A DNA stretch of 64,000 bases from NCBI GenBank assembly GCA_041661265.1, contig JBAZUT010000003.1:143191-207190 (forward strand), in the 5' to 3' direction. Positions within the stretch are counted from its first letter, which is position 1. Every line of letters begins with the position of its first letter. The notes beneath the pieces are model-generated. The model was not told the DNA's origin. It saw nothing but the letters and a program-made list of their open reading frames with translations, and did no database searches. This document shows positions 29,109-61,667 of this stretch, one piece after another. The stretch comes from Minisyncoccota bacterium (lineage in GTDB: Bacteria > Patescibacteriota > Minisyncoccia > JAHIHE01 > JAGLIN01). Made by a program: the position numbers and the translations under genes.

Positions 29109-30113
29109 TTGAGCTTTAATTTGCCTACTACAATGTTCATATTCAGAAAAAAAAGACGGCCTTCCGGACGGTTCAAAACACCGATCTATCTTAAGAACCG
29201 CAATTTTCACTATTTCAGCAAAAAAAGAAGCACCATCAATTACAAGATGGTATCTGTGTTATTTCTACTTCTCCTTTTTTCCTATTTCTTTTTCTTTTCG
29301 GGATTCTTCAAGATCAAGAACATTGTTATTGAAAATAACGTCAATCTGAAAAAAGGCGATCTGATAAGATCAACCGAGGAAAGCATTTCAATAAAATTGA
29401 TCGGTGTCATCCCCTCGGATAATTTTTTTATTGCAGATGAAAACTCCATAAGATCTTTCCTTGTCGACAGATATCCCATGCTTGAAAAAGTGGAAATAAA
29501 AAAAAGTTCATACAACTCGCTGACCATTGATGTCAAGGAAAAGGGATCGAGGATCATTTGGTGCAGACCGGAAAACTGTTTTTATCTGGACGGGAATTCT
29601 GTCGCGCTTGCGAACGCTAAAGAAGAATTGAAACTGAAAGACAAACCGATCAAGATATTCGAACAAAAAGAGATCGAAGAGGAGATAGGAGATGAACAAC
29701 CGGATAAAGCCGCAAATGCCCCCGAAAAAGCAACCATATCGACTACAGACCCTTCCGCGGAAAACAAACCCGATGAGGCAAAAAGAGAACCTGAAACTGC
29801 AGTTGAAACTCCCATAAACATCGGTGATCGCGTTGCAGATGCCAAGTTCGTCCAATTCCTGGATGATCTCGACAGGTTGATCGCAAAAAAAACCAGCCTG
29901 CAGATCAAATATTACAAAACAAAAGGAGTGGAAACGAGAGAAATTATAGCATACACCGACAAAAATACCCGCTTATATTTCGACTCTTCGGCGAGCCCGG
30001 ACCTGCAAACTGATTATCTGACGTCTTTTTTGAACGAAAGCGTCGATAAAGACAAGATTAGCGCGCTAAAATACATCTATCTCAAATCGGATAATAAAAT
30101 ATTCTACAAATAG
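29109..30113 (+). CDS. FtsQ/DivIB-like cell division protein (TM anchor plus POTRA-like domain) with a low-complexity acidic insert
   Basis: N-terminal TM helix VSVLFLLLLFSYFFFF, then FKIKNIVIENNVNL...LTIDVKEKGSRIIW, which follows the POTRA pattern. Confidence 0.45.
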   Translation: MSFNLPTTMFIFRKKRRPSGRFKTPIYLKNRNFHYFSKKRSTINYKMVSVLFLLLLFSYFFFFSGFFKIKNIVIENNVNLKKGDLIRSTEESISIKLIGVIPSDNFFIADENSIRSFLVDRYPMLEKVEIKKSSYNSLTIDVKEKGSRIIWCRPENCFYLDGNSVALANAKEELKLKDKPIKIFEQKEIEEEIGDEQPDKAANAPEKATISTTDPSAENKPDEAKREPETAVETPINIGDRVADAKFVQFLDDLDRLIAKKTSLQIKYYKTKGVETREIIAYTDKNTRLYFDSSASPDLQTDYLTSFLNESVDKDKISALKYIYLKSDNKIFYK

Positions 30114-31049: not shown

Positions 31050-31078
31050 TTGACTAAGTTGGGATATTGTGGTATAAT
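31050..31078 (+). promoter_or_regulatory. Near-consensus extended -10 sigma70 promoter for the giant gene
   Basis: TTGACT, a 17-bp spacer and TGgTATAAT. The TATAAT lies inside the ORF-track N-terminus (MWYN...), which argues that the true start is the ATG at 31112. Confidence 0.5.
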
Positions 31079-31111
31079 GAAAAGTCAATATTTACCCCTA
31101 AATTCAAATCT

Positions 31112-34100
31112 ATGGAATTTCGAGGAAATGAAGACCCTAAGAGTTCAGCTGAACAGCTAAAACGTTTTGAAACTGAAAAAGAAAAATTAGAAACCATATA
31201 TGATTATTTGATCAATGGCAAAGACAAAGAGGGAAACGAAATAACCACCAGGGAGGGCAAGAACAGGGCAAAACAAGATAAAAAAGAAATAAAAAGAAAC
31301 ATTACGGAGCTGACAAATAAAATTAATGTTATATCTGCAACTTTGGGCAAGCATCAGGAAGAAAGCTCAACTGATAAAAAAGAAATTGAAGAGCAGGGCG
31401 ACGACAAAGAAACTGGCGCAGAATATTTCGGAAGCAGCATGGAAGATATCAGCTTGGTTGCAAGCACGATATTGGGTGAAACAGATAAAACTGTTGAGAA
31501 ATTGGACTCCAGAGGATCACAAAATATTCAGAAACTGGAAAATGCCAAAGCAACTCAAAAAGAATTGGGTGAAGCGAAAAAGAATGAAGATCAAATCAGC
31601 AGCGAGAGTAAATCTGAAGCTGAAAAACTCAAGAGTAAGCTTTTAGAGCTGACATTTCCGGAAATGGTCGCGGTTGACGGTTTGGACAATCAACAACTGG
31701 AAAACAAATTAAATGAAGTTGAAAATTTTCTTAAAATAAACAAGATCGATGTTGCATTTGAAGAAGATCAGGAGATAAAGTCTGATGTTGAGAAGAAACT
31801 TTCAAAAGCAATGATTGCGATCGGCGCATACAGAAGGGATCTGCTTCAGAAAAAACTGGGTATCGGTGGGATTGGCGACGACACGAAAATGCCGCCGAGT
31901 GAAAAACTTGAAATTCCAAAGCATATCGACTTGGATTTGAAAAATAACGATAATCTTGAAGCACTAAAGCCAATCCTTGAAGAAGGCAACCACCATGAAA
32001 TTGTAGCGGAAATAATGAAAATTGCCGGACTTAAACCGGAAGAATTGCAAAATTTTGATTACCGGATCGAATCAAACAAGGATAAATCGACAGCAGAGAT
32101 AGTATTCAGCAAAAAAGATTCAATGGATAAAGAATTTACGATTGCAATTGACCTGAGCGGCGGAAAAATTGAAAAAATAACTGACGAAGACCGATTGCGC
32201 ATGTTCAATGAATTGACAGATCTCTTTGCCGAAAGAGGAGACCTGATCAAGCAAAGGAGTAACGCCAAAGACAAAGAAGAGATCCGGAGAATCGATGCGG
32301 ATCTTTCTGCGGTTAACTCCAAGCTTGATTCTTTATATAAAAAAATAGACAGGCCGGAAACAATAAGCGCGTTTGATGATTCCGAAAAAGATAAAATAAA
32401 AAAGATCGGAGAAATTCTAAGATCGGCAAGGGTTACCGACAGTTTTGACTATATGTCAGGAACAGGGTCTGCTGATCTCGTTGAAGATACCATCAGAAAA
32501 CGCGGAGGATTCAAACGTCCCGACGATCCCAAAAAAGAACAGCAAGCACCCCAAGAGAATATCAAAATCGGACAAACATATGAGTGCATTAATCCTTATT
32601 TTGATTTTTATAAAAAAGGTGATTATATCAGAATTGCGGAACGACAGAATAATCAGATCAGCCTGATTGAAGTTGACAGTGACGGCAAACAACTGAGCAG
32701 GTCAATCATTTCAGATAATGATTCAGAAATTGATGAATTTTTAAAATGTTTTAAGGAAATCGATCTTGAGCCTAACTCGAGCGTTAATAATAATGAAAAA
32801 ACTATGGAACAAATACCCATCGAACCTATTTCGGGCGCCGAATCTAACGATGATAACTTATCCATCGAACGTTTTGATTTTGAAAATATCAGCGATAAAG
32901 AAGATTTATCAAATCGCCTGTTTGAATTTGGAAAAAAACTCGAAGAAAGCAATCTGCGGACAGAACGCGAGATTTCAACAGATCTTTTGTTGTTTCTACA
33001 AAACAAAAGCTTGGGCCACTTGGAATCTGCAAAAATGCAAATCGACAAGTGCACAAACGAAAATGCAAAAAATAAACTGCAGGAACTCATTGTGAAATGC
33101 GAGGAGATCGTGAAAAATGAACCAAAACCGAAAGAAGACAATAAAGCGGAAAAAACAGAAACTGAAAAATTTGAAGATATAAGAAAGAAATGGAAATGGT
33201 ATGAAAGTGTAATAGATGGATGTGAAAATCACCCAGATTGGAATATTAAAAGAATAATAGAAAATCTTGAATATTTTACTTCTCATCCATTTTTTAAAGA
33301 AGATTTATTGGAATATGGGCTTGACCAGAATGAAAATAATCGTAAAACGGCAGAAAATATTAGAAATGAAGAATTGAATAAATCAATTAAGATGTTTGAG
33401 AAGTGGATAAGTGTTGAAGATGATTTTATGAAAAAAAGCGAAGAAATAAAAAAGACATATAACGAATCTTCTGGCAATAGAAAAAAGGAAGATATAATCA
33501 AATCCTTAAAAGAGAGTTTGGAAAATTTAGACAGCTCTGTTTTGGATGGCACCGAATTGGAAGATAATGACGAGAATAAAAAAACAGGTCTTGCAATTCA
33601 GTCAAATATTTTTAGAAAACTTTTAGAAGAGCTGGAAGGCAAAAAAGAAGAAATTGCAAAAGCGGAGCCAATAAAAGAAGGGGAAGAACAAAAGCAAAGC
33701 AAAGAACAGGAGAATGGAAGTCTTTTAGGCATAAAAATCAAGACAGCCGAGGATGTCGGAAAAATGACCAATGATGAGTTTATGAGCGCGGGAGGCGAAG
33801 CATTTGCAAAATACGAAGAGCTCGAATCCGGCAAAGATTTTGAAACACTGAAGACCACTGATGAGTTTTTGGTGTTTGCCGGATATCTGAATATTCTAAC
33901 CTCTGAACACGACAAGCGGACGAGGGAAGGAAGGATCGAAGTCAAGAAGCATAGGATCGCTTCCAACGAAGAAATTAACGCGCTTGATATGAAGAGCCTG
34001 CAGGAAGAACTGTCCAGAACTGAAATTTATCTGAATTACATAAAGACAAACAAAAGCCAGGAAGACTGGTTCAGTTCGGAGTTCAGTGACTATGGGCTAT

Positions 34101-36793
34101 ATCAGCAAAAACTTGAAAATAGGATAAACGAAATAAACGAAAATCCCAGCGCGAGACCTGCCGAAACTCCAAAGGAAACAACAAACGAAACAGCAGAGAT
34201 CGAAACAATGAGCGATGAAGATATCAAGAAAGAAACCGATACTGATGCTCTTCAGGAAAAGATCGACGAAACCATCGACTACCTGAAAAATACTGAAAAC
34301 ATATCCGAAGAAGACCATTCGAGGCTTTCCGTGTATATAGATAATCTGCAGATCAGGAAAAGCGAATTGGAAAAGATATTGATCAGCAAGGGATACAAAA
34401 AAATAAACGCGGGAATTAAGGATCTGAATAAAAACATGATACAGATCGAACGGACATCCGAAACACAAGAGATTGAAAACATCAAAAATGCAAAAACCGT
34501 AAAAGAGCTGAGCGATGGAATCAGGAATATCGAAGCCAAGGGCTTTGACGGAAAGGATATCGCCAACATCAAGAAACTGAAAGATGTCATGGAGAACATA
34601 TTCTCTCAAATTGCAGATGAGAAAGGCGGAAAGCTCAAGAATGACGTAAACTCGCCGGACTTCAGGAATATAGTAACCGATTCCGCCAAAGACGCTACGG
34701 CAAAATCGTATATCGTGGCGTTATTTGCAGCGATCGAAAATATCAGATCAGAACGCAGAATTGAATTAAACGTCGGAGATAAAATAAGAATGAAAGAAAA
34801 AGACGGACAGGTCCGCGATGGATGGATCGTGACAAAGATCGACGGCAAAAATGCCGAAGTTCAAAACGATAAAAACGGAGAGATTCTTGAAACGACCCTT
34901 GGCGAATTGGCCGGCTGGCAGGACGATAAGCTTATGGAAGAAGCAAAGAGAATAAAGGATAAAGAAGAAGAGATCAAGCTGAGAGAATATGAACTGCAGT
35001 TAAACGGCGGCGAAACAGAAAAGGACGAGAAACTGAATAAGCTGAAAAGCGAGCTGAAAGAATTAAAGGGAGTTAAGACCGGGAAAGATGAGAAAAAGGA
35101 AGGGCCTCAAACCTATGGGGAAATCGTTGAAAACATGAAAAAAATGGGAGAATTCCTTGAAAAAAGAAAAGTTGAACTTTCAAAGATCAATAGCGACGAA
35201 CAAATACAGAAGATCAAGGACAAGGTCAGCAGAGGCGAGAAATTGAGCGAAAAAGAAACCTCACAATACAAATCGATGTTCATGGCAAAAGACGAGGTTA
35301 CGATCTCCGAGATCGGCATATCTGCGATACAGAACGCAGACCTGTACAAGATCGACCTCCCATCCCTATCGCATGAGGAAGCAATGAAAGTTCTGGATCG
35401 GCGCATAAAAGCCAGTAAAGTGGATCTTTTTCTTCATGAGAAATTGAGAAGCTCCATTCGTTCCTGCAACGAAAAAATATCCCAGATGGATGAGGGAAGA
35501 CGTGGGGTATATGGCGCAATCGCAGACGGCATTTTGCGCGCCGCAAAACATATCCCGATCATAAAGAATTATACTTATCCGAATCTCGAAGCAAAAACAG
35601 AGCAGGAAAAGAAAAGAGAAGAAGGCATCAAAGAGGGAGCGACCGTGAGCATAAAAGAGAAAAAAGGTATAAGTGAAAAATGGAAGATCGTGAAAATCGA
35701 AGGTAATAAGGTTATCGTCGAAAAAGAGAACAGGGCCATGAAAGAATTCAAAGAAAAAGATCTGATGAAATGGAACAGCATAACCGAAAAAGGTAAATTC
35801 AAAAAAGGCGACAAGATTAGGGTCATGGTTGACGGCAAGATCGGAACTGATTGGGTCATCGAGAATGTCGAAGACAATAAGATCTTGGCTGCAAACGATA
35901 AAGCCAAAACGGAAAAAACGGTCAAAAAAGAAGATATCGTCAGCATTCAGGAAAAAGCCGCGGACAAGGAAAGCTTTAAGGATCTCCTGAGGGAACTGAA
36001 TGAGTTAAAAAGCAAGGATCTGGATATGACAAATATCAAAGATATGGCAAGTTTTGACAAGACATCAAAAGCATTGAAAACCAAATTCAATGAGATGTCG
36101 CAAAAAACGTCCTATTTTGAGGGTTTGGAAGATAAAGCGAAGAATGACATTGTGAATGTATTCAATATAGACCTTAATTGGTACAATGAATGCGTCAGAA
36201 AGAAAAAGACTGAAGAGAAAATGAAAGATAGGGAGCAGGACAAAAAAGGATTCAACGACAAAGTAGAGCAGCACAAAAATCTTATAAAAAGACTGCCGGA
36301 TGAACTGAAGGATTTCAAGGAAAGCCTTGAAAAGTTCATTGAATTTGCGAGCCAAACATATCATGAAACAAAATATTCAGACGAACCTGCCGACAATGAT
36401 AATGAGAAAGAAGAAAAGACTCTGCTGAAAAAGATGTTCACAGGAAAAGAGATCAGGGCGATCAAGGACAGTGAAGATGCTGATGAATTGATCGAGGCTG
36501 TTGAAAAATTTAAAACGGAGCTTAAACCTCAAATAAAGGATCATAAGGCCATAGAATCATGCTATTTGGTTTTGGACGATCTTGCCAACGACTCCAAGAG
36601 GAACAAAAATATAAGAAAATATACAAGAGATAAAATAAGGGACGAGATAGAAAAAATCGAAGATGACAATGCAAAGAAATACCTTAGAGCGGTTTTGGAG
36701 AAAATCGACGGACTGATCACGTCAAAAAAAGCTGCTGTTGGAGACAAGCCCAAGAAAACATCGAAAAACAAATCCAAAACGCGGAAAAAATAG
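31112..36793 (+). CDS. Giant (about 1,893 aa) charged coiled-coil protein with four KOW/SH3-like small beta modules
   Basis: Continuous ORF rich in K/E/D heptad-like segments. Four related modules of roughly 45 aa sit near 32570 (GDYIRIAERQNNQISLIEV), 34773 (GDKIRMKEKDGQVRDGWIVTKI), 35636 and 35815 (GDKIRVMVDGKIGTDWVIENV). Confidence 0.6.
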   Translation: MEFRGNEDPKSSAEQLKRFETEKEKLETIYDYLINGKDKEGNEITTREGKNRAKQDKKEIKRNITELTNKINVISATLGKHQEESSTDKKEIEEQGDDKETGAEYFGSSMEDISLVASTILGETDKTVEKLDSRGSQNIQKLENAKATQKELGEAKKNEDQISSESKSEAEKLKSKLLELTFPEMVAVDGLDNQQLENKLNEVENFLKINKIDVAFEEDQEIKSDVEKKLSKAMIAIGAYRRDLLQKKLGIGGIGDDTKMPPSEKLEIPKHIDLDLKNNDNLEALKPILEEGNHHEIVAEIMKIAGLKPEELQNFDYRIESNKDKSTAEIVFSKKDSMDKEFTIAIDLSGGKIEKITDEDRLRMFNELTDLFAERGDLIKQRSNAKDKEEIRRIDADLSAVNSKLDSLYKKIDRPETISAFDDSEKDKIKKIGEILRSARVTDSFDYMSGTGSADLVEDTIRKRGGFKRPDDPKKEQQAPQENIKIGQTYECINPYFDFYKKGDYIRIAERQNNQISLIEVDSDGKQLSRSIISDNDSEIDEFLKCFKEIDLEPNSSVNNNEKTMEQIPIEPISGAESNDDNLSIERFDFENISDKEDLSNRLFEFGKKLEESNLRTEREISTDLLLFLQNKSLGHLESAKMQIDKCTNENAKNKLQELIVKCEEIVKNEPKPKEDNKAEKTETEKFEDIRKKWKWYESVIDGCENHPDWNIKRIIENLEYFTSHPFFKEDLLEYGLDQNENNRKTAENIRNEELNKSIKMFEKWISVEDDFMKKSEEIKKTYNESSGNRKKEDIIKSLKESLENLDSSVLDGTELEDNDENKKTGLAIQSNIFRKLLEELEGKKEEIAKAEPIKEGEEQKQSKEQENGSLLGIKIKTAEDVGKMTNDEFMSAGGEAFAKYEELESGKDFETLKTTDEFLVFAGYLNILTSEHDKRTREGRIEVKKHRIASNEEINALDMKSLQEELSRTEIYLNYIKTNKSQEDWFSSEFSDYGLYQQKLENRINEINENPSARPAETPKETTNETAEIETMSDEDIKKETDTDALQEKIDETIDYLKNTENISEEDHSRLSVYIDNLQIRKSELEKILISKGYKKINAGIKDLNKNMIQIERTSETQEIENIKNAKTVKELSDGIRNIEAKGFDGKDIANIKKLKDVMENIFSQIADEKGGKLKNDVNSPDFRNIVTDSAKDATAKSYIVALFAAIENIRSERRIELNVGDKIRMKEKDGQVRDGWIVTKIDGKNAEVQNDKNGEILETTLGELAGWQDDKLMEEAKRIKDKEEEIKLREYELQLNGGETEKDEKLNKLKSELKELKGVKTGKDEKKEGPQTYGEIVENMKKMGEFLEKRKVELSKINSDEQIQKIKDKVSRGEKLSEKETSQYKSMFMAKDEVTISEIGISAIQNADLYKIDLPSLSHEEAMKVLDRRIKASKVDLFLHEKLRSSIRSCNEKISQMDEGRRGVYGAIADGILRAAKHIPIIKNYTYPNLEAKTEQEKKREEGIKEGATVSIKEKKGISEKWKIVKIEGNKVIVEKENRAMKEFKEKDLMKWNSITEKGKFKKGDKIRVMVDGKIGTDWVIENVEDNKILAANDKAKTEKTVKKEDIVSIQEKAADKESFKDLLRELNELKSKDLDMTNIKDMASFDKTSKALKTKFNEMSQKTSYFEGLEDKAKNDIVNVFNIDLNWYNECVRKKKTEEKMKDREQDKKGFNDKVEQHKNLIKRLPDELKDFKESLEKFIEFASQTYHETKYSDEPADNDNEKEEKTLLKKMFTGKEIRAIKDSEDADELIEAVEKFKTELKPQIKDHKAIESCYLVLDDLANDSKRNKNIRKYTRDKIRDEIEKIEDDNAKKYLRAVLEKIDGLITSKKAAVGDKPKKTSKNKSKTRKK

Positions 36794-36820: not shown

Positions 36821-37141
36821 ATGAAACTTATAGACGATAAAATGATCGAGGATATAATAGACTCCCTGGGCCTTCGGTTTCTTTCAGTCGAAAAAAGAAA
36901 TGAGATCTTGACTATGACGCTTGAACTTATCAGCAAGAGGGCCAGCATCAGAATAATTGAAAGCTTAAACGACGTCGAAGTCGGAGAGTTCAGCAACATC
37001 CCCAAAAATGAATTTGAAAAAATAGAAGATTTCCTCATTTTAAAGAATCCGAATGCAAAGACCATATTTGAAGAAGAACTTGCAAAGACCAAGAACGATA
37101 TTTTGAGTTCAAAGATTAACTTAAGCAACAATGAACAATAG
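36821..37141 (+). CDS. Hypothetical small protein
   Basis: 106-aa ORF lying between co-oriented genes. No motif was found. Confidence 0.35.
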   Translation: MKLIDDKMIEDIIDSLGLRFLSVEKRNEILTMTLELISKRASIRIIESLNDVEVGEFSNIPKNEFEKIEDFLILKNPNAKTIFEEELAKTKNDILSSKINLSNNEQ

Positions 37142-37313
37142 CGAAAAAATAAAAAAGATCAAAGAGATCTATGGCGCATTTCACGCCAAAATGAGAGATA
37201 TAATAAAACGGCAGTCCGATCTTATCGAGAAAATAGGCAGGCATTCGGATAACAAGAAGATCGAACAGGTCCGGAATAAGATCAGGAATTTATAATTTAT
37301 CATTGTAAAATAT

Positions 37314-38954
37314 ATGGCAAAACCAGAGGATACTCTTGATGAAACGAATATTAATAAGAAGGAGGCGAAAGAGATCGGCGTCGAAAACGAATCAGGCGGG
37401 GAGGTTTTAGCTGTTGAGACCGAAAAAACGAGGGAAGAAACCGACATGGTTACAAGCGGCGAGAGCATGACCGAAAACAGAATTGCCGCCCTGGAAGCGG
37501 AAAGCGATCCAAAAGCAAGTGAATTTCGCGGCGAAGCGGAAACCATCCAAAATGATCGCAGATCCGCGGAATCAACTCGCGACATGGACTTAGATAGACT
37601 TGAAGAAACAAATGAAACCGGGCAGGAAGCTGAATCGATGGATGAAGCAACGATAAAAAAATTATTGACCACCCTTGATTCCGCAAAACTGGATGCCCCG
37701 GAAAAGAAGAGAGTGCTTGATAAATTGATCGCGTCATACGAGAAATTGTACGGCAGCGCGAATGAGGATGAAAGAACCGCGATATTCAAAGAAAATCCTA
37801 CTCTCCGGGAAATTGTCGGATTGATCAATAAGATAGATAACGACATAAAACAAGCAGGTCCGGGAAACGAGCATGACAATGAGCCTGACACGGAAGATGT
37901 GACCGATGAAACAAATGAGAGCCCTGAATCAGGAGCTGATCCGATCAAAGAAAAGATCAAAAACAATGAGATGCTTTCGGTCGAGGAAGAAAAGATCTTG
38001 TTTGATAAATGCGAGAAGATCATTTTAAAGCAAAGGAACGGAGAGGATATAAGCGAGGAAGAGGTCGCCATGGTCATGATGTACCAAGAAGCTGTCGGAA
38101 AGGGCCTTACAGCCAAAGGCGCGGAAGTAAATGAGTCGGTAGATAAAGACGTGGAAGAAATAAATGCATTCAATGAAAAAAGCAAGGAAGAGAAAGACAA
38201 GGATATCAACGAGAGGCTGGAAAAGATCAAAAGCTCGGGAATAGAACTTAGTGATAAAGCTGAAGATGCTGAGGAACATATCAAGGAACTGGAAAAACAG
38301 CTCAAAGACAGATATGACGAATTTACAAAGATGGAAGAAGATATAGAAAAGATCAGAAATACCGAAGGCGTTGACCAGGAGGGTGCGAGAACATTAAAAA
38401 ACACCATTTCTTCACTGAAAAATATATATACGGACAAGCTGCACATAGAATATTATGAATATTGGATCAAATACCTCAAGGGAGGAGTGGAATCCCTGCA
38501 TGACTCCCATGCAAAACATAATATTTCCATGAATCAGCTGGAGACGCTTGGCGGGGACCTTGAAAGCGACCTTGCAAGCATAGAAAAAGGCGAATCGGAA
38601 GTACTTGCGAAATGGGCACAGTTTATAAAAGATCATCCAAAAACTGGACTTGCGCTTATTACCGCCGCCTTAGCCGCCGGAATCTTACTATCTCCATATC
38701 TTGTAAAATTTCTCGGCGCGCCGGAAATTGCAAAGCTTGGCACGGGAGCATTGGCTCCGCTGATGAAGCCGACTATAGCGTTGGGCGCAAAAGCAGTCGG
38801 AAGTCTGGCGTCGATATCAGGTTCCGTGGGTCTCGCAGGCATATTTCTTTTGCTGACGAACAGCGAAAAGATCGATGATGCCATGGAATCGATCTGGGGG
38901 AAGAAGATCCCCAATTGGGCCTCCTGGGGCCTAAAGAAGAAAGGCCAGAAGTAA
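37314..38954 (+). CDS. Acidic coiled-coil protein with a C-terminal multi-helix membrane anchor
   Basis: 546 aa. A D/E-rich body is followed by a hydrophobic C-terminus LALITAALAAGILL...GSVGLAGIFLLL. Confidence 0.5.
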   Translation: MAKPEDTLDETNINKKEAKEIGVENESGGEVLAVETEKTREETDMVTSGESMTENRIAALEAESDPKASEFRGEAETIQNDRRSAESTRDMDLDRLEETNETGQEAESMDEATIKKLLTTLDSAKLDAPEKKRVLDKLIASYEKLYGSANEDERTAIFKENPTLREIVGLINKIDNDIKQAGPGNEHDNEPDTEDVTDETNESPESGADPIKEKIKNNEMLSVEEEKILFDKCEKIILKQRNGEDISEEEVAMVMMYQEAVGKGLTAKGAEVNESVDKDVEEINAFNEKSKEEKDKDINERLEKIKSSGIELSDKAEDAEEHIKELEKQLKDRYDEFTKMEEDIEKIRNTEGVDQEGARTLKNTISSLKNIYTDKLHIEYYEYWIKYLKGGVESLHDSHAKHNISMNQLETLGGDLESDLASIEKGESEVLAKWAQFIKDHPKTGLALITAALAAGILLSPYLVKFLGAPEIAKLGTGALAPLMKPTIALGAKAVGSLASISGSVGLAGIFLLLTNSEKIDDAMESIWGKKIPNWASWGLKKKGQK

Positions 38955-38997
38955 TTTTGACCCCATATTTTAGTTTTGATATACGTAACATAATCCC

Positions 38998-39429
38998 ATG
39001 ACCGAAACAAATCACGAAATGAGCATCAAATCAGAGATCGAGCTTTTGGAAAAGCAATTGCAGGAAAAAAAACAGGCTCTTGAAAAAGGTCCTGCCGGAA
39101 AAAAGGAAGCTGAAATATCGAAAGAAAACGTGAACGAGGCTGAATTGTCAAACGTTCAGACCGCTACGCAAGCGCAGACAAAACCCGCGCTTACGAGCGA
39201 CGAGGACAAAACTGCCGAGATCAGCACGGACATAAGCAAAATAAAGGACCTTGATGTTTCGCGTCAGGTCAAGATCCTAACGACGTTGGCTTTTGAAAAA
39301 GGGATCCAATATAGCATAAAAGTCGCGCGCGGACTGAACAGCCCGTATCTTCTTGATGAACTTCATGATAAACTGGTGGGAGAACTTCACGACGAACTCG
39401 TAAAAAAAGGAAAATTGAAAGAAATATGA
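38998..39429 (+). CDS. Hypothetical coiled-coil protein
   Basis: 143-aa ORF co-oriented with its neighbours. Confidence 0.4.
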   Translation: MTETNHEMSIKSEIELLEKQLQEKKQALEKGPAGKKEAEISKENVNEAELSNVQTATQAQTKPALTSDEDKTAEISTDISKIKDLDVSRQVKILTTLAFEKGIQYSIKVARGLNSPYLLDELHDKLVGELHDELVKKGKLKEI

Positions 39430-39462
39430 TCTTCGATTAACATCTTAGCCTAATCATAATCT

Positions 39463-41928
39463 ATGGAAATCGATTTTATTGATCTGGTCATTACAGTCGG
39501 CATTTTTGATTTTGCCGTGTTGTTTTTTGTTTTTTTTATTTTTTGTTTTTTTGTCTACTTTATCTCAAACTTGAAAAGCTCGGGACAGCTTTCGCGCTCG
39601 CTGAATATGACCGTTCTCCGGATCGCTGTGCCGAAAAACAACCAAAAAGAACAGAAAGAAACAGGCGAAGCGGAAAAGGAAAGTATTTCCATAATGGAAC
39701 ATCTTTTCGCAAGCTTGAGCAATATCAGGGAAGAGTCTATGAAGAAGCTGATCTATGGCCCATTTTATCTTTCTTTCGAGATATCTACGCCGATAGACAG
39801 CAATGAAATTTTTTTCTATGTTTCATGCCCGAAAAAGTTCCAGTCGATAATCGAAAAACAGATACATAGCTTTTATTCAGACGCGGAGATCAAAAAGATC
39901 GACGACTACAATTCATTCGTTCCCAACGGAAAAAGCGCAGGATGCTATTTGAAACTCAAAAAAACCACCGCATTCCCTCTGAAAACATACAGAAGACTCG
40001 AAGCCGATCCGATCTCAAGCATAACCAATGCGCTCAGCAAGATCCCTGTCGGAAAAGGCGCAGCCATACAGATCATAATCAAACCGACAGATAATCTCTG
40101 GCACCAGGAAAGCACTGAGCTCATCAAAGAAATGCAAAAGGGCAGAGGATTCGGCGGAAAAAAACAATCTTCGACCGTAAAAGCGATCGGCGAATTTGCA
40201 AAGATCGCTGCCGGAACAGACTCAAAGAAGGATGAAAAGAAAAAGCAGGAAGAACTTCAGATAAAACTTACATCTTCTCAGGAAGAAACGATGAAAGCCG
40301 TTTCCGAGAAAGCGACTAAGGTCGGATTTATGACCAATATACGGATAGTCACATCAGCTCCTACGCTTGAAGAAGCAAAAATGACGCTGAACGAGATTGA
40401 GAATTCATTCACTCAATTCGGTTCACCGGACCTCAACTCATTCGAGATCAGCGAGCTTGTGGGGGGAAGTCTCAATCAGGCAATATATAATTTTATATTC
40501 AGAAATTTCGACAAGTCGCGGAAGATCATCCTCAACACGGAAGAGCTTGCCAGCATATATCATTTCCCGATCATGTCGACACAGACCCCTCAGGTCAATT
40601 GGCTGAAATCAAAACAGGCGCCGGCGCCGAACAATATCGTCGAAAAGGGATTGATATTGGGGCACAATACATACAGAGGGATCGACACGATCATAAAGAT
40701 CGGACGCGAAGACAGAAGAAGGCACATGTACGTCATCGGACAGACCGGAACCGGAAAGTCGGCTTTCCTCGGCGAACTCATTAAGCAGGATATAAAAAAT
40801 GGCGACGGCATATGTCTTATAGACCCGCATGGCGATCTTGTTGAAGAGGCACTGGGTTCGGTTCCAAAAGACAGAGCTGAGGACGTCGTGCTTTTCGATC
40901 CGTCAAACATGCAGAAGCCGATGGGGTTGAACCTTCTTGAATATGATCCGAATTATCCCGAGCAAAAGACGTTTGTCATCAATGAAATGATCAAGATCTT
41001 CGATAAATTATATGATCTGAAATCCACAGGCGGACCGATGTTCGAGCAATATATGAGAAATGCGATGCTTCTTATCATGGAAGATCCCGCCTCAGGATCC
41101 ACGCTGATCGAAATCTCAAAAGTTCTTGCGGATGCGGAGTTCAGAAAATATAAATTATCGAAATGCAAGAATTATGTCGTCAAGAATTTCTGGCAAAAAG
41201 AAGCTGAAAAGGCCGGCGGGGAAGCGGCTCTTGCGAATATGGTACCCTACATCACAAGCAAGCTGACACAATTCATATCCAACGACACAATGCGACCGAT
41301 CATCGGCCAGCAGAAAAGCTCCATAAATTTCAGAGAAATAATGGATAATCGCAAGATCCTTCTTGTGAACCTTTCAAAGGGAAGGATCGGAGAAATGAAC
41401 GCATATCTTTTGGGACTTGTTATTGTCGGAAAAATACTGGTTTCATCGCTCAGCAGAACCGACATGCCGCAGGAAGAAAGAAAAGATTTCTATCTATATA
41501 TCGACGAGTTCCAGAATTTCACAACCGACAGCATTTCAACCATACTTTCTGAAGCGAGAAAATATCGATTGTGCCTCAACATAGCGCATCAATTCCTCGG
41601 CCAGCTTCCCGAAGAGATCCAAAAGTCCGTATTCGGAAACGTCGGAAGCATAATCTCTTTCAGGATCGGCCCCGAGGACGCCGAATTTATGACAAAACAA
41701 TTCATGCCCGTATTTGATGAACAGGACCTTATCAACATCGACAACTACAACGCCTACGTAAAACTTATGATATCGGGAACCATAAGCAGGGGATTTAATA
41801 TGGCCACATTCCCGCCGCTCAAGACAAATCTCGAGATCGCAAGCGCAATTAAAGAGCTTTCTTCACTTAAATATGGCCGTGATAGAGAAGTTATCGAACG
41901 CGAGATAATACAAAGAACGCTGATCTAG
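39463..41928 (+). CDS. VirD4/TrwB/TraG-family type IV coupling-protein-like P-loop ATPase with an N-terminal TM anchor
   Basis: N-terminal TM helix (VITVGIFDFAVLFFVFFIFCFFVYF). The Walker A block MYVIGQTGTGKSAFLGELIKQDIKNGDGICLIDPHGDLVEE is colinear with the TrwB block ATGTGKSVLLRELAYTGLLRGDRMVIVDPNGD. The Walker B is YLYIDEFQNF (TrwB has FIDELASL). Total length is 821 aa. Confidence 0.65.
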   Translation: MEIDFIDLVITVGIFDFAVLFFVFFIFCFFVYFISNLKSSGQLSRSLNMTVLRIAVPKNNQKEQKETGEAEKESISIMEHLFASLSNIREESMKKLIYGPFYLSFEISTPIDSNEIFFYVSCPKKFQSIIEKQIHSFYSDAEIKKIDDYNSFVPNGKSAGCYLKLKKTTAFPLKTYRRLEADPISSITNALSKIPVGKGAAIQIIIKPTDNLWHQESTELIKEMQKGRGFGGKKQSSTVKAIGEFAKIAAGTDSKKDEKKKQEELQIKLTSSQEETMKAVSEKATKVGFMTNIRIVTSAPTLEEAKMTLNEIENSFTQFGSPDLNSFEISELVGGSLNQAIYNFIFRNFDKSRKIILNTEELASIYHFPIMSTQTPQVNWLKSKQAPAPNNIVEKGLILGHNTYRGIDTIIKIGREDRRRHMYVIGQTGTGKSAFLGELIKQDIKNGDGICLIDPHGDLVEEALGSVPKDRAEDVVLFDPSNMQKPMGLNLLEYDPNYPEQKTFVINEMIKIFDKLYDLKSTGGPMFEQYMRNAMLLIMEDPASGSTLIEISKVLADAEFRKYKLSKCKNYVVKNFWQKEAEKAGGEAALANMVPYITSKLTQFISNDTMRPIIGQQKSSINFREIMDNRKILLVNLSKGRIGEMNAYLLGLVIVGKILVSSLSRTDMPQEERKDFYLYIDEFQNFTTDSISTILSEARKYRLCLNIAHQFLGQLPEEIQKSVFGNVGSIISFRIGPEDAEFMTKQFMPVFDEQDLINIDNYNAYVKLMISGTISRGFNMATFPPLKTNLEIASAIKELSSLKYGRDREVIEREIIQRTLI

Positions 41929-42098: not shown

Positions 42099-42180
42099 AT
42101 TTCACTATCACACCCAATAAGCCGTTTTAAAGGCCGGGTATTGCCAATTTGGCTGGAATTGATATAATGTTCTAGTATCT

Positions 42181-42253
42181 GCGGGTGTCGTATAACGGCT
42201 TATTATGCTAGCCTTCCAAGCTGGAGACGTGGGTTCGACTCCCATCACCCGCT
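42181..42253 (+). tRNA. tRNA-Gly (anticodon TCC)
   Basis: GCGGGTG acceptor stem, anticodon stem CTAGC/GCTGG with loop CTTCCAA, T-arm GTGGG-TTCGACT-CCCAT, and discriminator U. Confidence 0.75.
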
Positions 42254-42285
42254 CATCGATAATGAAAAATGCAGCATAAAAAAAC

Positions 42286-44268
42286 TTGATGATATTAAAA
42301 CAAAATATTTACGCGGTCAAGAAAAAAACAAAACAACTAAAATCGTTTTATGCGTTTATGTTGTTTTTTTGTGCCTTTTTCATTTATTCACCTTTTATAT
42401 TTTCCGGATACGCAAAAGCTGACACGCTTAATGACAAAGTTAATTTCCTCGTCGATTCTTCATATGACTCGAATAACCGGTCGAATATCGATACGACACT
42501 GAGAAAGATCAGCAATTACGCTTTTTTTTATGTCGAAAACGAATATTACGATTCCCTTGGATATGCCGAACAGGTTAAATTCGATTCCGACCTTGAAAAT
42601 CTTGCTTCCAGTTTTGATAACACGATATATCCCAGAATGCGCAATATCTTCGGGGATGAATGGAGTCCCGGAATTGACAACATGGAACACATCACAATAC
42701 TTTTCACAAAAACAAAAGAGAATGTCGGCGGTTATTTCAATCCCAACGACGAGTATCCGAAATCAAATGTCGTCGATGACAAAAGCAATGAGAGAGAAAT
42801 GCTCTATCTGAACGCAATTTTTGCAGGCAATGACAGGATAGAAAGTTTTATAGCCCATGAATTTCAGCACATGATAACGTGGTATCATAAAACTAAACTT
42901 AGAAATATCAATGACGACATCTGGCTGAACGAATCCAGATCGGAATATGCATCGACCGCGATAGGATATGATGACGACTATCAGAAAAGCAATCTTCGCG
43001 CCAGAGTCGAGAATTTCATGCAAAATCAGACTGACTCGCTTACGGAATGGCAGAACAAGATCCAGGATTATTCTTCCGTAAATCTCTTTTCTCAATACCT
43101 CGCCGATCATTTCGGAGGCGACACCTTCAGGACTATGATAGGCAATGATACTGCCGGCATCGAAAGCATAAATAAGGCGCTCAGCGAAAATGGCTTCACG
43201 AGCAGTGTTTTTTCCGATATTTTTTCGAATTGGAGCGTGGCCAATTATCTGAACAACAGATATTATCTTGACGGAAAATATGGATACATTAATCCAAATC
43301 TTACATATGACAATTTCCATCTGGCACCGACAAAGACCTATTTTATCGGCAACGACGATATTCCCGTCAGCATATCAGCTTCCATTAAAGACTGGAGTTC
43401 GAGATATTTTGAAATAAAACCGGCCAATAACCTGACGGGCTTGAATATCGAGATAAGCTTTAACGGCGATAATTCGGGTAAATTTGCTGTTCCATATGCG
43501 CTCATGTCCGGAGATGCGGTTGTTTCCGTGAGTAAAGCTATTCTTGACAGGAATCAGGATAATAAAATACTGGTCAAAAACTTCGGAACAGATATCACTT
43601 CCGTCATATTGATGCCGAATAGCCAGAAAAAAACAGAGGGATTCGGGAGCGAGATAGAATCATATTCATTTTCCATTTCCGTTAAGACGATCATCGGAGA
43701 ACTATACCCCGACGGCACAATTCTAAAATCATACAAAAATCCTGAAGTATATCTGATCGAGGACGGAAAGAAGAGGTGGATCACGAGCGCTGCGGCTTTT
43801 ATTTCAAACGGATACAGCTGGAATAACATAACCTATATAAATTCTAACGAACTCGACTTTTTTGAAAGAGGAGAAAATATTTATGCAAAAGACCTGAAAC
43901 CCGACGGCACTCTCATTAAGGGCAGCGGACCGGAGGTTTATATTGTTGAAAACGGAATGAAAAGATGGATAACGACAGCCGGAGTTTTCGTGTCGAGGGG
44001 CTATAAATGGGAAAACATCATAACTGTGTCGGAAAACGAACTCGGTTCATATACAGAAGGTCAGGATATATCTTTCCAGAATCTGAAACCCGACGGCACT
44101 CTCATTAAGGGCAGCGGACCGGAGGTTTATATTGTTGAAAACGGAATGAAAAGATGGATAACGACAGCCGGAGTTTTCGTGTCGAGGGGCTATAAATGGG
44201 AAGAGATCGTCGTGATCCCGGACATAGACTTGAACTCTTATGCGGACGGATTGGATATAGACAGATGA
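42286..44268 (+). CDS. Secreted protein with an HExxH (zincin-like) motif and three C-terminal repeats of about 63 aa
   Basis: Signal/TM helix LKSFYAFMLFFCAFFIYSPFIF. An AHEFQHM motif is present. The three C-terminal repeats (YPDGTILK...VYLIEDGKKRWITS...GYSWNNI) are related to those of the downstream hydrolase. Confidence 0.55.
   Translation: MMILKQNIYAVKKKTKQLKSFYAFMLFFCAFFIYSPFIFSGYAKADTLNDKVNFLVDSSYDSNNRSNIDTTLRKISNYAFFYVENEYYDSLGYAEQVKFDSDLENLASSFDNTIYPRMRNIFGDEWSPGIDNMEHITILFTKTKENVGGYFNPNDEYPKSNVVDDKSNEREMLYLNAIFAGNDRIESFIAHEFQHMITWYHKTKLRNINDDIWLNESRSEYASTAIGYDDDYQKSNLRARVENFMQNQTDSLTEWQNKIQDYSSVNLFSQYLADHFGGDTFRTMIGNDTAGIESINKALSENGFTSSVFSDIFSNWSVANYLNNRYYLDGKYGYINPNLTYDNFHLAPTKTYFIGNDDIPVSISASIKDWSSRYFEIKPANNLTGLNIEISFNGDNSGKFAVPYALMSGDAVVSVSKAILDRNQDNKILVKNFGTDITSVILMPNSQKKTEGFGSEIESYSFSISVKTIIGELYPDGTILKSYKNPEVYLIEDGKKRWITSAAAFISNGYSWNNITYINSNELDFFERGENIYAKDLKPDGTLIKGSGPEVYIVENGMKRWITTAGVFVSRGYKWENIITVSENELGSYTEGQDISFQNLKPDGTLIKGSGPEVYIVENGMKRWITTAGVFVSRGYKWEEIVVIPDIDLNSYADGLDIDR
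43894..44202 (+). repeat. Two 120-nt stretches identical at the nucleotide level (period 189 nt) within the CDS, indicating a recent tandem duplication
   Basis: CTGAAACCCGACGGCACTCTCATTAAGGGCAGCGGACCGGAGGTTTATATTG...GGCTATAAATGGGAA occurs at 43894-44013 and again at 44083-44202. Confidence 0.8.
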
Positions 44269-44354
44269 TCACAAAAGCGGCTTGTTTCTGATGAGCTGTT
44301 TTTTTTATCGATAGCGCCAAACGGAACAATATGCTATAATGTGGTCATAGAAAT

Positions 44355-47300: not shown

Positions 47301-47510
47301 AGCAAAACTTATTGCAACAGCGACTTTTCCTATCTTTCCGGCGGCGCCAATGATCCAGATGGAACCGTTCACGACCGGAACAAGATGGCATCGAGTCATG
47401 GAGCCGGTATGAGTGCGGTGGGAGCCCTCAAGATGGCAGAAAACGGCACCTCCTTGCAGAACATGATCGCGCACTATTACCCTGGAGTTGAAATTATTAA
47501 ATATTATTGA
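44355..47510 (+). CDS. Secreted multidomain peptidoglycan hydrolase: PGRP/Amidase_2, about ten 60-aa repeats, and a SpoIID/LytB domain
   Basis: Signal peptide, then the Amidase_2 core (FVIHHTAS...GYNYIIDPNGNIYEGRAGG...ATICPGN). About ten tandem repeats follow (YPDG[ST]L[IL]..VY[LY]IxNGxKRxIxSxxxFxxLGYKWxNV). The C-terminal SpoIID signature is LEDYVNGIAE...ARTYAMYY...YSSDSGGVT. Confidence 0.75.
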   Translation: MIITKLNSKKLPYSAILFLAVFFALFENIAYASNSIAPEIIPRSVWGGSKTTPDWPVEYGNAEKFVIHHTASSTLTPDADGSGKYTDMVESIFDYHSEKKTWYDDDGEYVGFGDIGYNYIIDPNGNIYEGRAGGNGSTGGHVKGFNVGSIGISVLGRYQGYLNSKNENVPSHPVTDSILDSLKNLIGWLASANNIDLNATTEFHGKNIDGIVGHRDLSATICPGNDLYSKLSEIQNSAVIKKTEFDKYAYQIPGDRSIYVIDEGYKLKFNSLGELPSGHRNKNVIAASEAQLDLFRYKDSTIYPDGSLLQEFGSNAVYYIDKQEKRHLNMKGEEFSKMGFDNSKIIYVFKSDLNIYKEGKNIKYGPDGKLVKDASSKVYLIQSGKKRGFTSAKLFEFLGYRWKNIELDENIGLYLDGGDMLYPDKSLVKTAASPNVYFIENKQKRKITSDTLFNKLGYKTKNVITIEDVELSHFPSAKNMTYPDGTLLQQENRPSVYLVANGSVRIFPSAELFLKLGYKWKNVTAIKADEFKNYSYAGRVLQPNGTLIRPLDGSDIYLVDNGTKRKISSALMFEKLGYKWNSVLPLPPDQINEYPSGENLKYPDGTLIKKEGSGIIYRIDGGKIREFTSQTLFEKTGSKWTDVVTLPANEFAAYAYGGIVMYPNKTLLREKGKDAIYVIKDQKALGIKSLAEFNKAGYKWKDVIDLPKEEITLMIDPGKAFQRDATPQYIPAKSPAKSADALTSQEKTEPPASNTSANKPVNPDIKIAIYSITEGSVRMTANGPYKVDHMNGDGTIQKTEKRSANEQTEIAYFNSASYVKFTPSSKDTVLEVVSYNDPSWNNAVNDNRFRGNIIIKYSDISDKLWIVNELPLEDYVNGIAETTSESHNEYLKAFSIIARTYAMYYIERGGKHIGEPFHLKNSRNGNGNDQSYKGYNFEIRADKIVLASRETAGKIITFNGKPIVAAYSSDSGGVTKSACDVLSKTYCNSDFSYLSGGANDPDGTVHDRNKMASSHGAGMSAVGALKMAENGTSLQNMIAHYYPGVEIIKYY

Positions 47511-60431: not shown

Positions 60432-60440
60432 TCTTAATCT

Positions 60441-61481: not shown

Positions 61482-61667
61482 CTAACACTTGTCAAGAGGG
61501 GCTGTGCATAACTGCTTACGGCAAGAATATTTTTCTTTGTCACGATTATAAATCTCGAAGACAGTCGGTCTTTTTATCCCGAATATCTTGGCCAGTTCAC
61601 CATAAGAACATCCTTTGTTTCTCATTTCTACCAGCCTTTTGTTTCTTTTAGTTTGTGGTTTTGACAT
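61482..61667 (-). CDS. Small HTH DNA-binding protein (sigma70 region 4 / LuxR-like helix-turn-helix)
   Basis: 61 aa. The segment RNKGCSYGELAKIFGIKRPTVFEIY looks like a helix-turn-helix. It lies adjacent to the integrase. Confidence 0.4.
   Translation of the reverse strand: MSKPQTKRNKRLVEMRNKGCSYGELAKIFGIKRPTVFEIYNRDKEKYSCRKQLCTAPLDKC

What the first reader, a model, noticed from the sequence alone, without database searches (positions are those of the whole stretch)
31050..36793. Giant 1,893-aa coiled-coil protein with four KOW/SH3-like modules and a mis-set start
A single ORF of about 5.7 kb encodes a K/E/D-rich, largely coiled-coil protein with no enzymatic motifs. Embedded in it are four small beta-strand modules of the pattern GDxIRVxxxDGxxxxGWVIxxVxxxK, which resemble KOW/SH3-like domains. 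A near-consensus promoter (TTGACT, 17 bp, TGgTATAAT) overlaps the first 12 nt of the ORF-track ORF, which argues that the true start is the ATG at 31112. Giant filamentous proteins are a feature of CPR cell surfaces and host-interaction loci.
Basis: partly seen in the sequence, partly recalled or inferred. Interest (0 to 1): 0.6.

Follow-up and report, generated by a model that had tools for sequence, protein, structure and literature searches.

The report
Fast-evolving giant helical protein with SH3-like barrels
This is a real but almost orphan 1,893-residue soluble protein of a Paceibacterota (CPR) bacterium: mostly short alpha-helices, not one long coiled coil, with three small SH3/KOW-like barrels, and it is the first gene of an operon that ends in a membrane-anchored VirD4-like ATPase, so its role is probably tied to that ATPase and remains unknown.

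Summary
**What holds up**
- The ORF, its K/E/D-rich composition, the ATG start at 31112 and the near-consensus promoter are all confirmed. The public annotation already uses that ATG.
- Three of the four modules (M2, M3, M4) are conserved in orthologues. They are modelled as four- or five-stranded SH3-like barrels whose best matches are the Spt5 KOW2-KOW3 pair and Tudor/Agenet domains.

**What does not**
- M1 shares only its first strand motif with the others, and it is an insertion/deletion cassette.
- "Largely coiled-coil" is not supported. There are 54 helices with a median of 13 residues, and only 10-29% of residues lie in heptad-like windows.
- "Cell-surface filament" is not supported. 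There is no signal peptide, membrane segment or anchor.

**What it is**
- The protein has seven relatives among 1.84 billion representative proteins.
- It is under purifying selection (dN/dS about 0.1), yet it is the fastest-diverging gene in its neighbourhood and is mosaic.
- It sits in a conserved slot: large variable protein, then DUF5663, then small proteins, then an orphan VirD4-like ATPase. In other Paceibacteria, unrelated large proteins fill this slot.

**Best guess (low confidence)**
It is a cytoplasmic scaffold or adaptor for that ATPase, or possibly its substrate.

The parts
31050..31078 (+). Sigma-70-type promoter: TTGACT, 17-nt spacer, extended -10 TGgTATAAT. The expected transcription start is near 31085, giving a 5' UTR of about 27 nt.
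   Evidence: It matches 11 of 12 positions and has the TG element. Sites of this class are enriched: 15 observed against 1.9 expected. An equivalent promoter lies at the same distance upstream of the orthologue in L083.
31112..36793 (+). Coding sequence of the 1,893-aa protein (identical to P0001, NCBI WC788_03625, annotated 'hypothetical protein').
   Evidence: dN/dS is 0.04-0.13 over aa 934-1893 against the 83%-identical relative. There are seven relatives among 1.84e9 representative proteins.
32618..32791 (+). M1, a putative barrel module (aa ~503-560) whose fold was not tested. It is an insertion/deletion cassette.
   Evidence: It carries the motif KKGDYIRI. It is missing from the 83% relative L087. 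An equivalent module sits at the N-terminus of P0003, P0004 and P0007. It matches the M2-M4 profile over only 17 columns.
33011..33901 (+). Mosaic segment (aa ~634-930) that has been exchanged relative to the closest relative.
   Evidence: Here dS is 1.3-1.5 and amino-acid identity 42-56%. The rest of the gene shows dS 0.4-0.65 and identity 85-96%.
34763..34927 (+). M2, an SH3-like beta-barrel module (aa ~1218-1272).
   Evidence: It is conserved in P0002-P0004. Strands fall at model residues 531-569. It lies in the window with the lowest dN/dS, 0.04.
35630..35779 (+). M3, an SH3/KOW-like barrel (aa ~1507-1556), the first of a tandem pair.
   Evidence: AlphaFold2 gives pLDDT 73-80 with four strands and a short helix. 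It aligns to Spt5 KOW2.
35801..35950 (+). M4, an SH3/KOW-like barrel (aa ~1564-1613), the second of the tandem pair.
35978..36721 (+). C-terminal all-helical domain (aa ~1623-1870). It is the most confidently modelled part and is conserved across the family. In P0004 and P0006 an extra insert sits within it.
   Evidence: pLDDT is 80-90. Conserved motifs include LPDExKDFK, YHETKYSDE and NAKKYLxAVL. It has no PDB fold match.
36713..36790 (+). Lysine-rich C-terminal tail (KKAAVGDKPKKTSKNKSKTRKK).
   Evidence: Read from the sequence. Similar tails occur in P0002-P0005 but not in P0006 or P0007.
36821..37141 (+). Downstream partner gene of 106 aa, a DUF5663-type small acidic helical protein, starting 27 nt after the stop codon.
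   Evidence: Its orthologue in L083 is 72% identical and scores 27.1 bits on PF18908. A DUF5663-like ORF follows the large ORF in all three families. This copy itself does not reach the Pfam threshold.
37131..37295 (+). 54-aa gene that overlaps the end of the DUF5663 gene.
   Evidence: It is 81% identical in L083.
37314..38954 (+). 546-aa protein with two C-terminal hydrophobic segments. It is the second fastest-diverging gene in the operon.
38998..39429 (+). 143-aa protein found next to the ATPase in most related loci.
   Evidence: It has a match in 68 of the 80 related loci. It is 85% identical in L083.
39463..41928 (+). 821-aa VirD4/TraD-like (HerA/FtsK superfamily) ATPase with N-terminal membrane segments. 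It is the last gene of the putative operon.
   Evidence: Pfam gives DUF87, TrwB_AAD_bind and TraG-D_C. NCBIfam gives weak VirD4-like and TraD matches. Hydrophobic segments start at residues 1 and 20. It is 50-90% identical across Paceibacteria.

Best explanation
The gene is real. It is transcribed from its own near-consensus promoter and is under purifying selection. It encodes a lineage-restricted, soluble, multi-domain protein.

The protein consists of many short-to-medium alpha-helices arranged in a chain. Three SH3-like (KOW/Tudor-type) beta-barrels are inserted in it, plus a fourth putative one. It ends in a confidently modelled helical domain and a lysine-rich tail.

It is the first gene of a six-gene, same-strand, tightly spaced unit: giant protein, DUF5663, 54 aa, 546 aa with membrane segments, 143 aa, then a membrane-anchored VirD4-like ATPase.

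The most likely role (inferred, not shown) is a cytoplasmic scaffold or adaptor for that orphan coupling-protein-type ATPase. The barrels and the basic tail would bind a ligand, either nucleic acid or a partner protein. The helical body would space or present that ligand to the ATPase at the membrane.

Fast, mosaic evolution and turnover of unrelated large proteins in this slot suggest the bound partner is itself variable, or that only loose physical properties are constrained.
For: Shown:
- The gene is real and constrained. dN/dS is 0.04-0.13 over 960 codons, and orthologues sit in the same synteny.
- The protein is soluble: no hydrophobic segment reaches membrane-segment level.
- The barrels match SH3-like folds, with Spt5 KOW2-KOW3 the top hit by both sequence and structure.
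- The six genes run on one strand, with gaps of at most 43 nt (one pair overlaps) and no + strand terminator-like site.
- Of 62 related loci, 52 have a DUF5663-like ORF within 4 kb upstream of the ATPase. In 47 of them an ORF of 730-1,598 aa lies directly before it.
- The ATPase has VirD4-like domains and N-terminal membrane segments.

From the literature:
- Patescibacteria carry 5,713 VirD4-like coupling-protein homologues. [quoted passage not shown]

Inferred:
- The functional link follows from operon structure and conserved neighbourhood.
- Ligand binding follows from what KOW, Tudor and SH3-like barrels generally do.
Against: - There is no direct evidence of any interaction.
- The large proteins in the same slot in other genomes are not detectably homologous (hhalign E = 0.15 and 0.36). 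The 'slot' may therefore hold functionally unrelated genes.
- No fold match exists for about 90% of the protein.
- Model confidence is moderate (mean pLDDT 65-67, pTM 0.28-0.41).
- One relative, P0006, lies downstream of a DUF5663 gene in a different context.
- The upstream genes (FtsQ, FemAB, a Mur ligase) equally suggest a cell-envelope or division role.
Confidence: 0.35

Rival explanations
1. It is a translocated substrate or effector. The VirD4-like ATPase would recognise the protein, perhaps through its lysine-rich C-terminus. The small acidic DUF5663 protein would act as a chaperone. A type IV secretion system encoded elsewhere in the genome would then export it into or onto a host cell.
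For: - It lacks a signal peptide and is encoded with a coupling-protein-type ATPase.
- It has a positively charged C-terminal tail, conserved in five family members. From general knowledge, VirB/D4 substrates carry positively charged C-terminal signals.
- A small acidic partner gene lies directly downstream.
- It is the fastest-diverging gene in its neighbourhood: 42% and 24% identity against 57-90% for the flanking genes.
- It shows a mosaic segment and a cassette insertion/deletion.
- Unrelated families, and tandem pairs or triplets of large ORFs, occupy the slot in other genomes.
Against: - The window contains no VirB4 or channel genes.
- In the one Patescibacterium with genome-wide gene-essentiality data, the coupling protein was not essential for epibiotic growth, although other T4SS genes were (PMC12102498).
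- dN/dS of about 0.1 shows constraint, not positive selection.
- Lysine runs are expected by chance in a protein that is 14.5% lysine.
- The tail is absent from P0006, P0007 and family B.
Confidence: 0.2
2. It is a cell-division or cell-envelope scaffold. It would be a cytoskeleton-like helical protein working with FtsQ. The FtsK/HerA-superfamily ATPase and the downstream amidase/SpoIID hydrolase would take part in septation or chromosome clearance.
For: - The gene order is Mur ligase, DegT, FemAB, FtsQ (POTRA), a 234-aa gene, the giant protein..., the ATPase, tRNA-Gly, a 660-aa gene, then Amidase_2+SpoIID.
- FtsQ lies within 10 kb upstream in 24 of the 80 related loci.
- About 10-29% of residues fall in heptad-like windows.
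Against: - The window has no FtsA or FtsZ.
- The helices are short, so the protein is not rod-like.
- Core division proteins are rarely replaced by unrelated families between genomes whose flanking ATPase is 75% identical.
- The ATPase matches the VirD4/TraD and HerA models. No FtsK_SpoIIIE match was reported.
Confidence: 0.15
3. This is the first reader's view: a giant filamentous coiled-coil protein on the CPR cell surface, used for host interaction.
For: - The protein is large and K/E-rich.
- It evolves rapidly.
Against: - It has no signal peptide, membrane segment or anchor.
- Heptad coverage is low and the helices are short.
- No adhesin-type domain or repeat was detected.
Confidence: 0.05
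4. It is a NusG/Spt5-like factor that uses true KOW domains to bind RNA polymerase or the ribosome.
For: The best sequence and structure matches are to Spt5 KOW2-KOW3.
Against: - There is no NGN domain.
- The Pfam KOW model gives no hit, even at a permissive threshold, for the whole protein or for ten individual modules.
- The whole-family profile finds no Spt5 or NusG protein among solved structures. Only a uL24 match appears, and it is not significant (E = 0.93).
- The operon context is unrelated to transcription or translation.
Confidence: 0.05

Closest known systems
Spt5 (DSIF) KOW2-KOW3 tandem
   Same: - Both have two adjacent SH3-like barrels about 55 residues apart.
- Identity is 26-27% over about 120 aligned columns.
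- It is the best hit by phmmer (E = 5e-5) and by Foldseek (E = 9e-5).
   Different: - This protein has no NGN domain.
- It does not match Pfam KOW.
- It is bacterial, and the barrels sit inside a 1,893-aa helical protein.
- The relative orientation of the two barrels is not reproduced (rmsd about 10 A, query TM-score 0.35).
Tudor / Agenet / integrase C-terminal SH3-like barrels
   Same: The single-barrel fold agrees with the SMN Tudor domain (target TM-score 0.75, rmsd 1.4 A over 52 residues) and with TDRD3, SETDB1 and the Rous sarcoma virus integrase C-terminal domain. Tandem Agenet and 53BP1 domains also match.
   Different: - Sequence identity is only 12-24%.
- Only one aromatic residue, a Trp, is conserved. 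There is therefore no aromatic cage for methyl-lysine or methyl-arginine.
Large variable proteins in the same slot in other Paceibacteria (family B: L003, L004, L008, L015; family C: 55 ORFs, mostly from MAGs labelled Moranbacteria)
   Same: - They occupy the same position, directly before a DUF5663 gene and upstream of the conserved VirD4-like ATPase.
- They are large (730-1,598 aa).
- Family B is also K/E/D-rich (32-40%) and has no hydrophobic segments.
   Different: - No homology is detectable (blastp and phmmer give nothing; hhalign E = 0.15 and 0.36).
- Family C often has internal hydrophobic segments, and one member has HEAT repeats.
Long bacterial coiled-coil cytoskeletal proteins (for example Scy and FilP; comparison from general knowledge)
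   Same: They are large, charged and mostly helical, and lack enzymatic domains.
   Different: - Heptad coverage is 10-29%, against 89-100% in the tropomyosin control.
- The longest predicted helix is 45 residues.

Membership tests
KOW domain (Pfam PF00467; NusG/Spt5/uL24 type) | Match to the family HMM at or near the gathering score | tested here: not met
   PF00467 is not reported for the whole protein at E <= 1. It is not reported for any of ten individual modules at E <= 10.
KOW domain (Pfam PF00467; NusG/Spt5/uL24 type) | Five-stranded SH3-like barrel with significant similarity to a solved KOW domain | tested here: met
   - phmmer aligns M3+M4 to Spt5 KOW2-KOW3 (E = 5e-5).
- Foldseek ranks Spt5 first (E = 9e-5).
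- The model has only moderate confidence (pLDDT 73-80 in the barrels).
- The module profile alone gives only E = 0.05.
KOW domain (Pfam PF00467; NusG/Spt5/uL24 type) | Occurs with an NGN domain or in a ribosomal protein | tested here: not met
   There is no NGN or ribosomal domain.
Tudor/Agenet 'royal family' readers | Aromatic cage of 3-4 conserved aromatic residues | tested here: not met
   Only one Trp is invariant across the ten aligned modules.
Long coiled-coil (filamentous) proteins | Heptad periodicity over most of the length | tested here: not met
   10-29% of residues are covered, against 89-100% in tropomyosin and 2-8% in shuffles. The score is home-made; COILS or Marcoil was not available.
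Long coiled-coil (filamentous) proteins | Uninterrupted helices of about 100 residues or more | tested here: not met
   The longest helix is 45 residues and the median is 13, across 54 helices in aa 694-1893. The N-terminal 693 aa were not modelled.
Secreted or surface giant proteins of CPR bacteria | Signal peptide, membrane anchor or cell-wall anchor | tested here: not met
   The N-terminus is MEFRGNEDPKSS. The highest 19-residue hydropathy value is 0.99, against 1.6 or more for membrane segments in the neighbouring proteins.
Type IV secretion substrate | Positively charged C-terminal signal and dependence on a coupling protein | tested here: inconclusive
   A lysine-rich tail is present and shared by five relatives, and a coupling-protein-like ATPase lies in the same operon. 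The tail is not specific in a lysine-rich protein, and translocation cannot be tested here.
VirD4/TraD-type coupling protein (the neighbouring ATPase at 39463-41928) | N-terminal membrane segments plus a TrwB/TraG-type P-loop ATPase domain | tested here: met
   - DUF87 scores 40.1 bits against a cutoff of 23.2.
- TrwB_AAD_bind scores 26.3 against 20.5.
- TraG-D_C scores 20.2 against 22.
- Hydrophobic segments start at residues 1 and 20.
- NCBIfam equivalog cutoffs are not reached (42 bits against 250), so this is a divergent member.
DUF5663 (PF18908; the neighbouring gene at 36821-37141) | Match to the family HMM | tested here: inconclusive
   The window copy is not reported at E <= 0.5. Its orthologue in L083 is 72% identical and scores 27.1 bits against a cutoff of 23.7. 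The positional equivalents in six other loci also pass.

The most novel reading that the evidence does not exclude
The unit 'large hypervariable protein + DUF5663 + 143-aa protein + orphan VirD4-like ATPase' may be a dedicated delivery module that is widespread in Paceibacteria. The first gene would be an exchangeable cargo, either an effector or a nucleic-acid-binding pilot protein that uses the SH3/KOW-like barrels and the basic tail. The cargo would be handed by small adaptor proteins to the coupling ATPase and exported to host cells. Conflict with hosts would explain the mosaic evolution and the replacement of whole families in this slot.
Probability: 0.15. Interest if true: 0.75.

Novelty: new variant of a known kind. 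Interest (0 to 1): 0.4.

Why it matters
- Patescibacteria carry thousands of VirD4-like ATPases that are not next to any secretion channel, and their role is open (PMC12102498).
- This locus shows such an ATPase in a conserved operon whose first gene is a large, rapidly replaced protein. That gives concrete partner candidates to test.
- The protein also shows that 'giant K/E-rich ORF' in CPR genomes should not be read automatically as coiled-coil surface filament.
- It adds a bacterial example of tandem SH3/KOW-like barrels outside transcription and translation factors.
- By itself, without a demonstrated function, it remains a hypothetical protein with a very narrow distribution.

Tried and rejected
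**Homologue and fold searches**
- Word-indexed homologue searches returned at most the protein itself. I tried the full protein, aa 1200-1640 and the family alignment. In my reading the K/E-rich words swamped candidate selection. Only the exhaustive HMMER search found relatives.
- Scans of JGI metagenome contigs with the C-terminal alignment, and of viral contigs with aa 1200-1893, found nothing. The full family alignment was too divergent to use.
- I could not link family A to the slot families B and C. blastp and phmmer gave nothing. hhalign gave E = 0.15 and 0.36. There was only a weak shared motif, MSxEELxxEIxxxxxYLxxI.
- The family profile against solved structures gave nothing significant. 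Foldseek on the 1,200-residue model matched only the barrels.

**Ideas tested and rejected**
- I tested whether the 480-aa N-terminal extension is a fusion of the extra upstream gene seen in relatives (L085 383 aa, L004 344 aa). There is no similarity.
- I guessed that the HTHP-containing insert in P0004 and P0006 is a JAB/MPN peptidase. Pfam and PDB sequence searches do not support this.
- Prophage or defence-island origin is rejected. The giant protein has no PHROGs or PADLOC hit, and the flanking genes are housekeeping.
- A Shine-Dalgarno argument for the start codon cannot be used. None of the 27 starts checked in the window has a Shine-Dalgarno sequence.


Full report
**1. The observation**

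The open frame ends at 36793. Its first start codon is TTG at 31067, and the ATG at 31112 gives 1,893 aa. Composition is K 14.5%, E 13.5%, D 8.2% and I 8.6%. No 19-residue window exceeds a hydropathy of 0.99, so there is no signal peptide or membrane segment. Pfam, NCBIfam, PHROGs and PADLOC give nothing above noise.

The promoter TTGACT-17-TGgTATAAT at 31050-31078 is the best site in an 8-kb scan. Sites matching at least 11 of 12 positions occur 15 times in the window, against 1.9 +/- 1.4 in Markov-1 simulations, and most of them lie just upstream of genes. Promoters of this type are therefore really used in this genome. The TTG at 31067 lies inside the promoter spacer.

The 43%-identical orthologue has TTGACA-17-TGcTAAAAT ending 34 nt before its ATG, against 33 nt here. 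None of the 27 starts checked in the window has a Shine-Dalgarno sequence, so its absence here says nothing. The identical public protein (P0001, NCBI WC788_03625, Candidatus Paceibacterota MAG) is already annotated from this ATG. The start-codon argument is correct but adds nothing to the public record.

**2. Is it a real gene?**

An exhaustive HMMER search of 1.84 billion representative proteins, using aa 694-1893 as query, found only seven relatives. Four of them were placed on contigs with the same synteny:
- P0003: Mur ligase, DegT, FemAB, FtsQ, a 232-aa gene, the homologue, DUF5663, 53 aa, 835 aa, 143 aa, ATPase.
- P0007: downstream of FtsQ.
- P0004 and P0002: followed by the small genes.

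Against the 83%-identical relative, dN/dS is 0.04-0.13 across aa 934-1893. The gene is coding and constrained.

It is also the fastest-diverging gene of its neighbourhood. It shows 42% identity over the C-terminal 940 aa and 24% further upstream. The flanking genes show 57-90%.

The gene is mosaic in three ways:
- Between aa 634 and 930, dS jumps to 1.3-1.5, against 0.4-0.65 elsewhere. This indicates a recombined segment.
- M1 is present here but absent from the 83% relative.
- This protein has an N-terminal extension of about 480 aa compared with P0003, P0004 and P0007, which begin with an M1-like module.

**3. Architecture**

AlphaFold2 was run on aa 694-1893 with the eight-row family alignment (mean pLDDT 64.7, pTM 0.28). 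It gives 66% helix and 7% strand. There are 54 helices with a median of 13 residues and a longest of 45.

A heptad-register score covers 89-100% of a tropomyosin control. It covers only 10-29% of this protein, against 2-8% in shuffles. The protein is helical with some amphipathic or coiled segments, but it is not a long coiled-coil rod.

M2, M3 and M4 are conserved in orthologues. Each folds as four or five strands followed by a short helix. The last ~250 residues before the tail form the best-modelled helical domain (pLDDT 80-90). It has no PDB match.

**4. The modules**

- phmmer of the protein against PDB sequences returns one hit, Spt5. M3+M4 align to the adjacent KOW2 and KOW3 domains, as I identify them from the known human SPT5 sequence (E = 3e-4 for the full protein, 5e-5 for aa 1197-1663, bias 0).
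- Foldseek with the M3-M4 model ranks Spt5 chains first (E = 9e-5, 26-27% identity). Tandem Agenet, 53BP1 and FXR tandem Tudor domains, and the KIN SH3-like tandem follow.
- In the large model the barrels match the SMN and TDRD3 Tudor domains (target TM-score 0.71-0.75) and the SH3-like C-terminal domain of Rous sarcoma virus integrase.
- Pfam KOW is never hit. Individual modules give only sub-threshold matches to SH3-like families: Myosin_N in 4 of 10, plus SH3_1, Agenet and the RimP SH3 domain.
- Only one Trp and one Gly are invariant across the ten aligned modules, so there is no aromatic cage.

The conclusion is that these are SH3-like barrels, closest to KOW, but not demonstrable members of the KOW family. 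M1 shares only the KKGDxIxI strand with the others, and its fold was not tested.

**5. Context**

From the promoter at 31050, six genes follow on one strand. Gaps are at most 43 nt (one pair overlaps), and no + strand terminator-like site was found. The genes are the giant protein, a 106-aa DUF5663-type protein, a 54-aa protein, a 546-aa protein with two C-terminal hydrophobic segments, a 143-aa protein, and an 821-aa ATPase.

The ATPase has N-terminal membrane segments and the DUF87, TrwB_AAD_bind and TraG-D_C domains. A tRNA-Gly with its own promoter separates it from the next genes, a 660-aa protein and an Amidase_2+SpoIID protein.

The ATPase is 50-77% identical in the 80 related genomes retrieved. 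Of the 62 loci with enough upstream sequence, 52 have a DUF5663-like ORF within 4 kb upstream. In 47 of these, an ORF of 730-1,598 aa lies directly before it.

These large ORFs fall into one group of 55, one group of four and twelve singletons. The group of 55 (family C) comes mostly from MAGs labelled Moranbacteria. The group of four (family B) comes from the closest relatives. Neither group is detectably related to this protein's own small family A. Some genomes carry two or three large ORFs in tandem in this position.

A published survey found 5,713 VirD4-like coupling proteins in Patescibacteria. Only 148 are near virB4, and the authors raise possible exaptation for other functions (PMC12102498). 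The window contains no virB4, ftsA or ftsZ.

**6. Interpretation**

Three things are shown:
- The gene is real and constrained, yet fast-evolving and mosaic.
- The product is soluble and mostly helical, with three SH3-like barrels.
- It leads a conserved operon that ends in an orphan VirD4-like ATPase.

Its function is only inferred. My ranking is:
- About 0.35: a cytoplasmic scaffold or adaptor for the ATPase.
- About 0.2: a translocated substrate. The basic tail, the small acidic partner gene, and the hypervariability and turnover of the slot support this. The missing channel genes and dN/dS of about 0.1 argue against it.
- About 0.15: a division or envelope scaffold, suggested by FtsQ and the cell-wall genes nearby.
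- 0.05 each: a surface filament, or an Spt5/NusG-like factor.

**7. Novelty**

The protein is an uncharacterised, near-orphan family built partly from a known fold. The conserved 'variable large protein - DUF5663 - VirD4-like ATPase' arrangement is the more interesting result. I found no paper that mentions DUF5663 or DUF8128.

Noticed in passing
Window 36821-41928, and loci L003-L082: A conserved arrangement recurs across Paceibacteria: a large variable ORF, a DUF5663 gene, a g143-like gene, then an orphan VirD4-like ATPase. It was found in 47-52 of 62 loci. The large ORFs form at least three mutually unrelated families, sometimes in tandem pairs or triplets. No paper in the library mentions DUF5663 or DUF8128.
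   Followed up: partly
P0004 (L084:173-5926) and P0006 (L086:2303-4570): Two relatives carry an extra insert of about 200 aa with an HTHP motif, placed before the conserved C-terminal helices. It looked JAB/MPN-like by eye, but Pfam and PDB sequence searches gave nothing.
   Followed up: partly
L087:2-610: In the 83%-identical relative the gene is split by a frameshift near aa 620 of the window protein. This is either an assembly error or a pseudogene.
   Followed up: no
Window 39463-41928: The VirD4-like ATPase matches PHROG family phrog_5156 (function unknown) over its whole length, E = 4.5e-87. Either phages of these bacteria encode it, or CPR contigs were filed as viral.
   Followed up: no
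Window 42141-42254: tRNA-Gly(TCC) lies at 42181-42254, behind a near-consensus promoter whose -35 hexamer starts at 42141. It sits between the ATPase and the next gene and marks the end of the operon.
   Followed up: yes
Window 42286-47510: The 660-aa protein and the 1,051-aa Amidase_2+SpoIID protein share a repeated segment (aa 473-658 and aa 422-601). Each has one N-terminal hydrophobic segment.
   Followed up: no
Whole window: None of the 27 starts checked in the window has a Shine-Dalgarno sequence. Near-consensus sigma-70 promoters are about eight times more frequent than expected.
   Followed up: partly
Window 20260-22347: A class II lysyl-tRNA synthetase carries a C-terminal HD phosphohydrolase domain at aa 527-599 (24.8 bits). 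I am not aware of this fusion being described.
   Followed up: no
Window 29109-30113: The FtsQ-like (POTRA) gene has two candidate starts. The longest ORF begins at TTG 29109 (334 aa). Public gene calls use a 288-aa form starting at 29247.
   Followed up: no
Window 59106-62617: A protein with a Peptidase_C39-like domain lies at 59106-60431. A tyrosine recombinase (Phage_integrase) lies at 61727-62617 on the minus strand, near the end of the window. This may be the edge of a mobile element.
   Followed up: no
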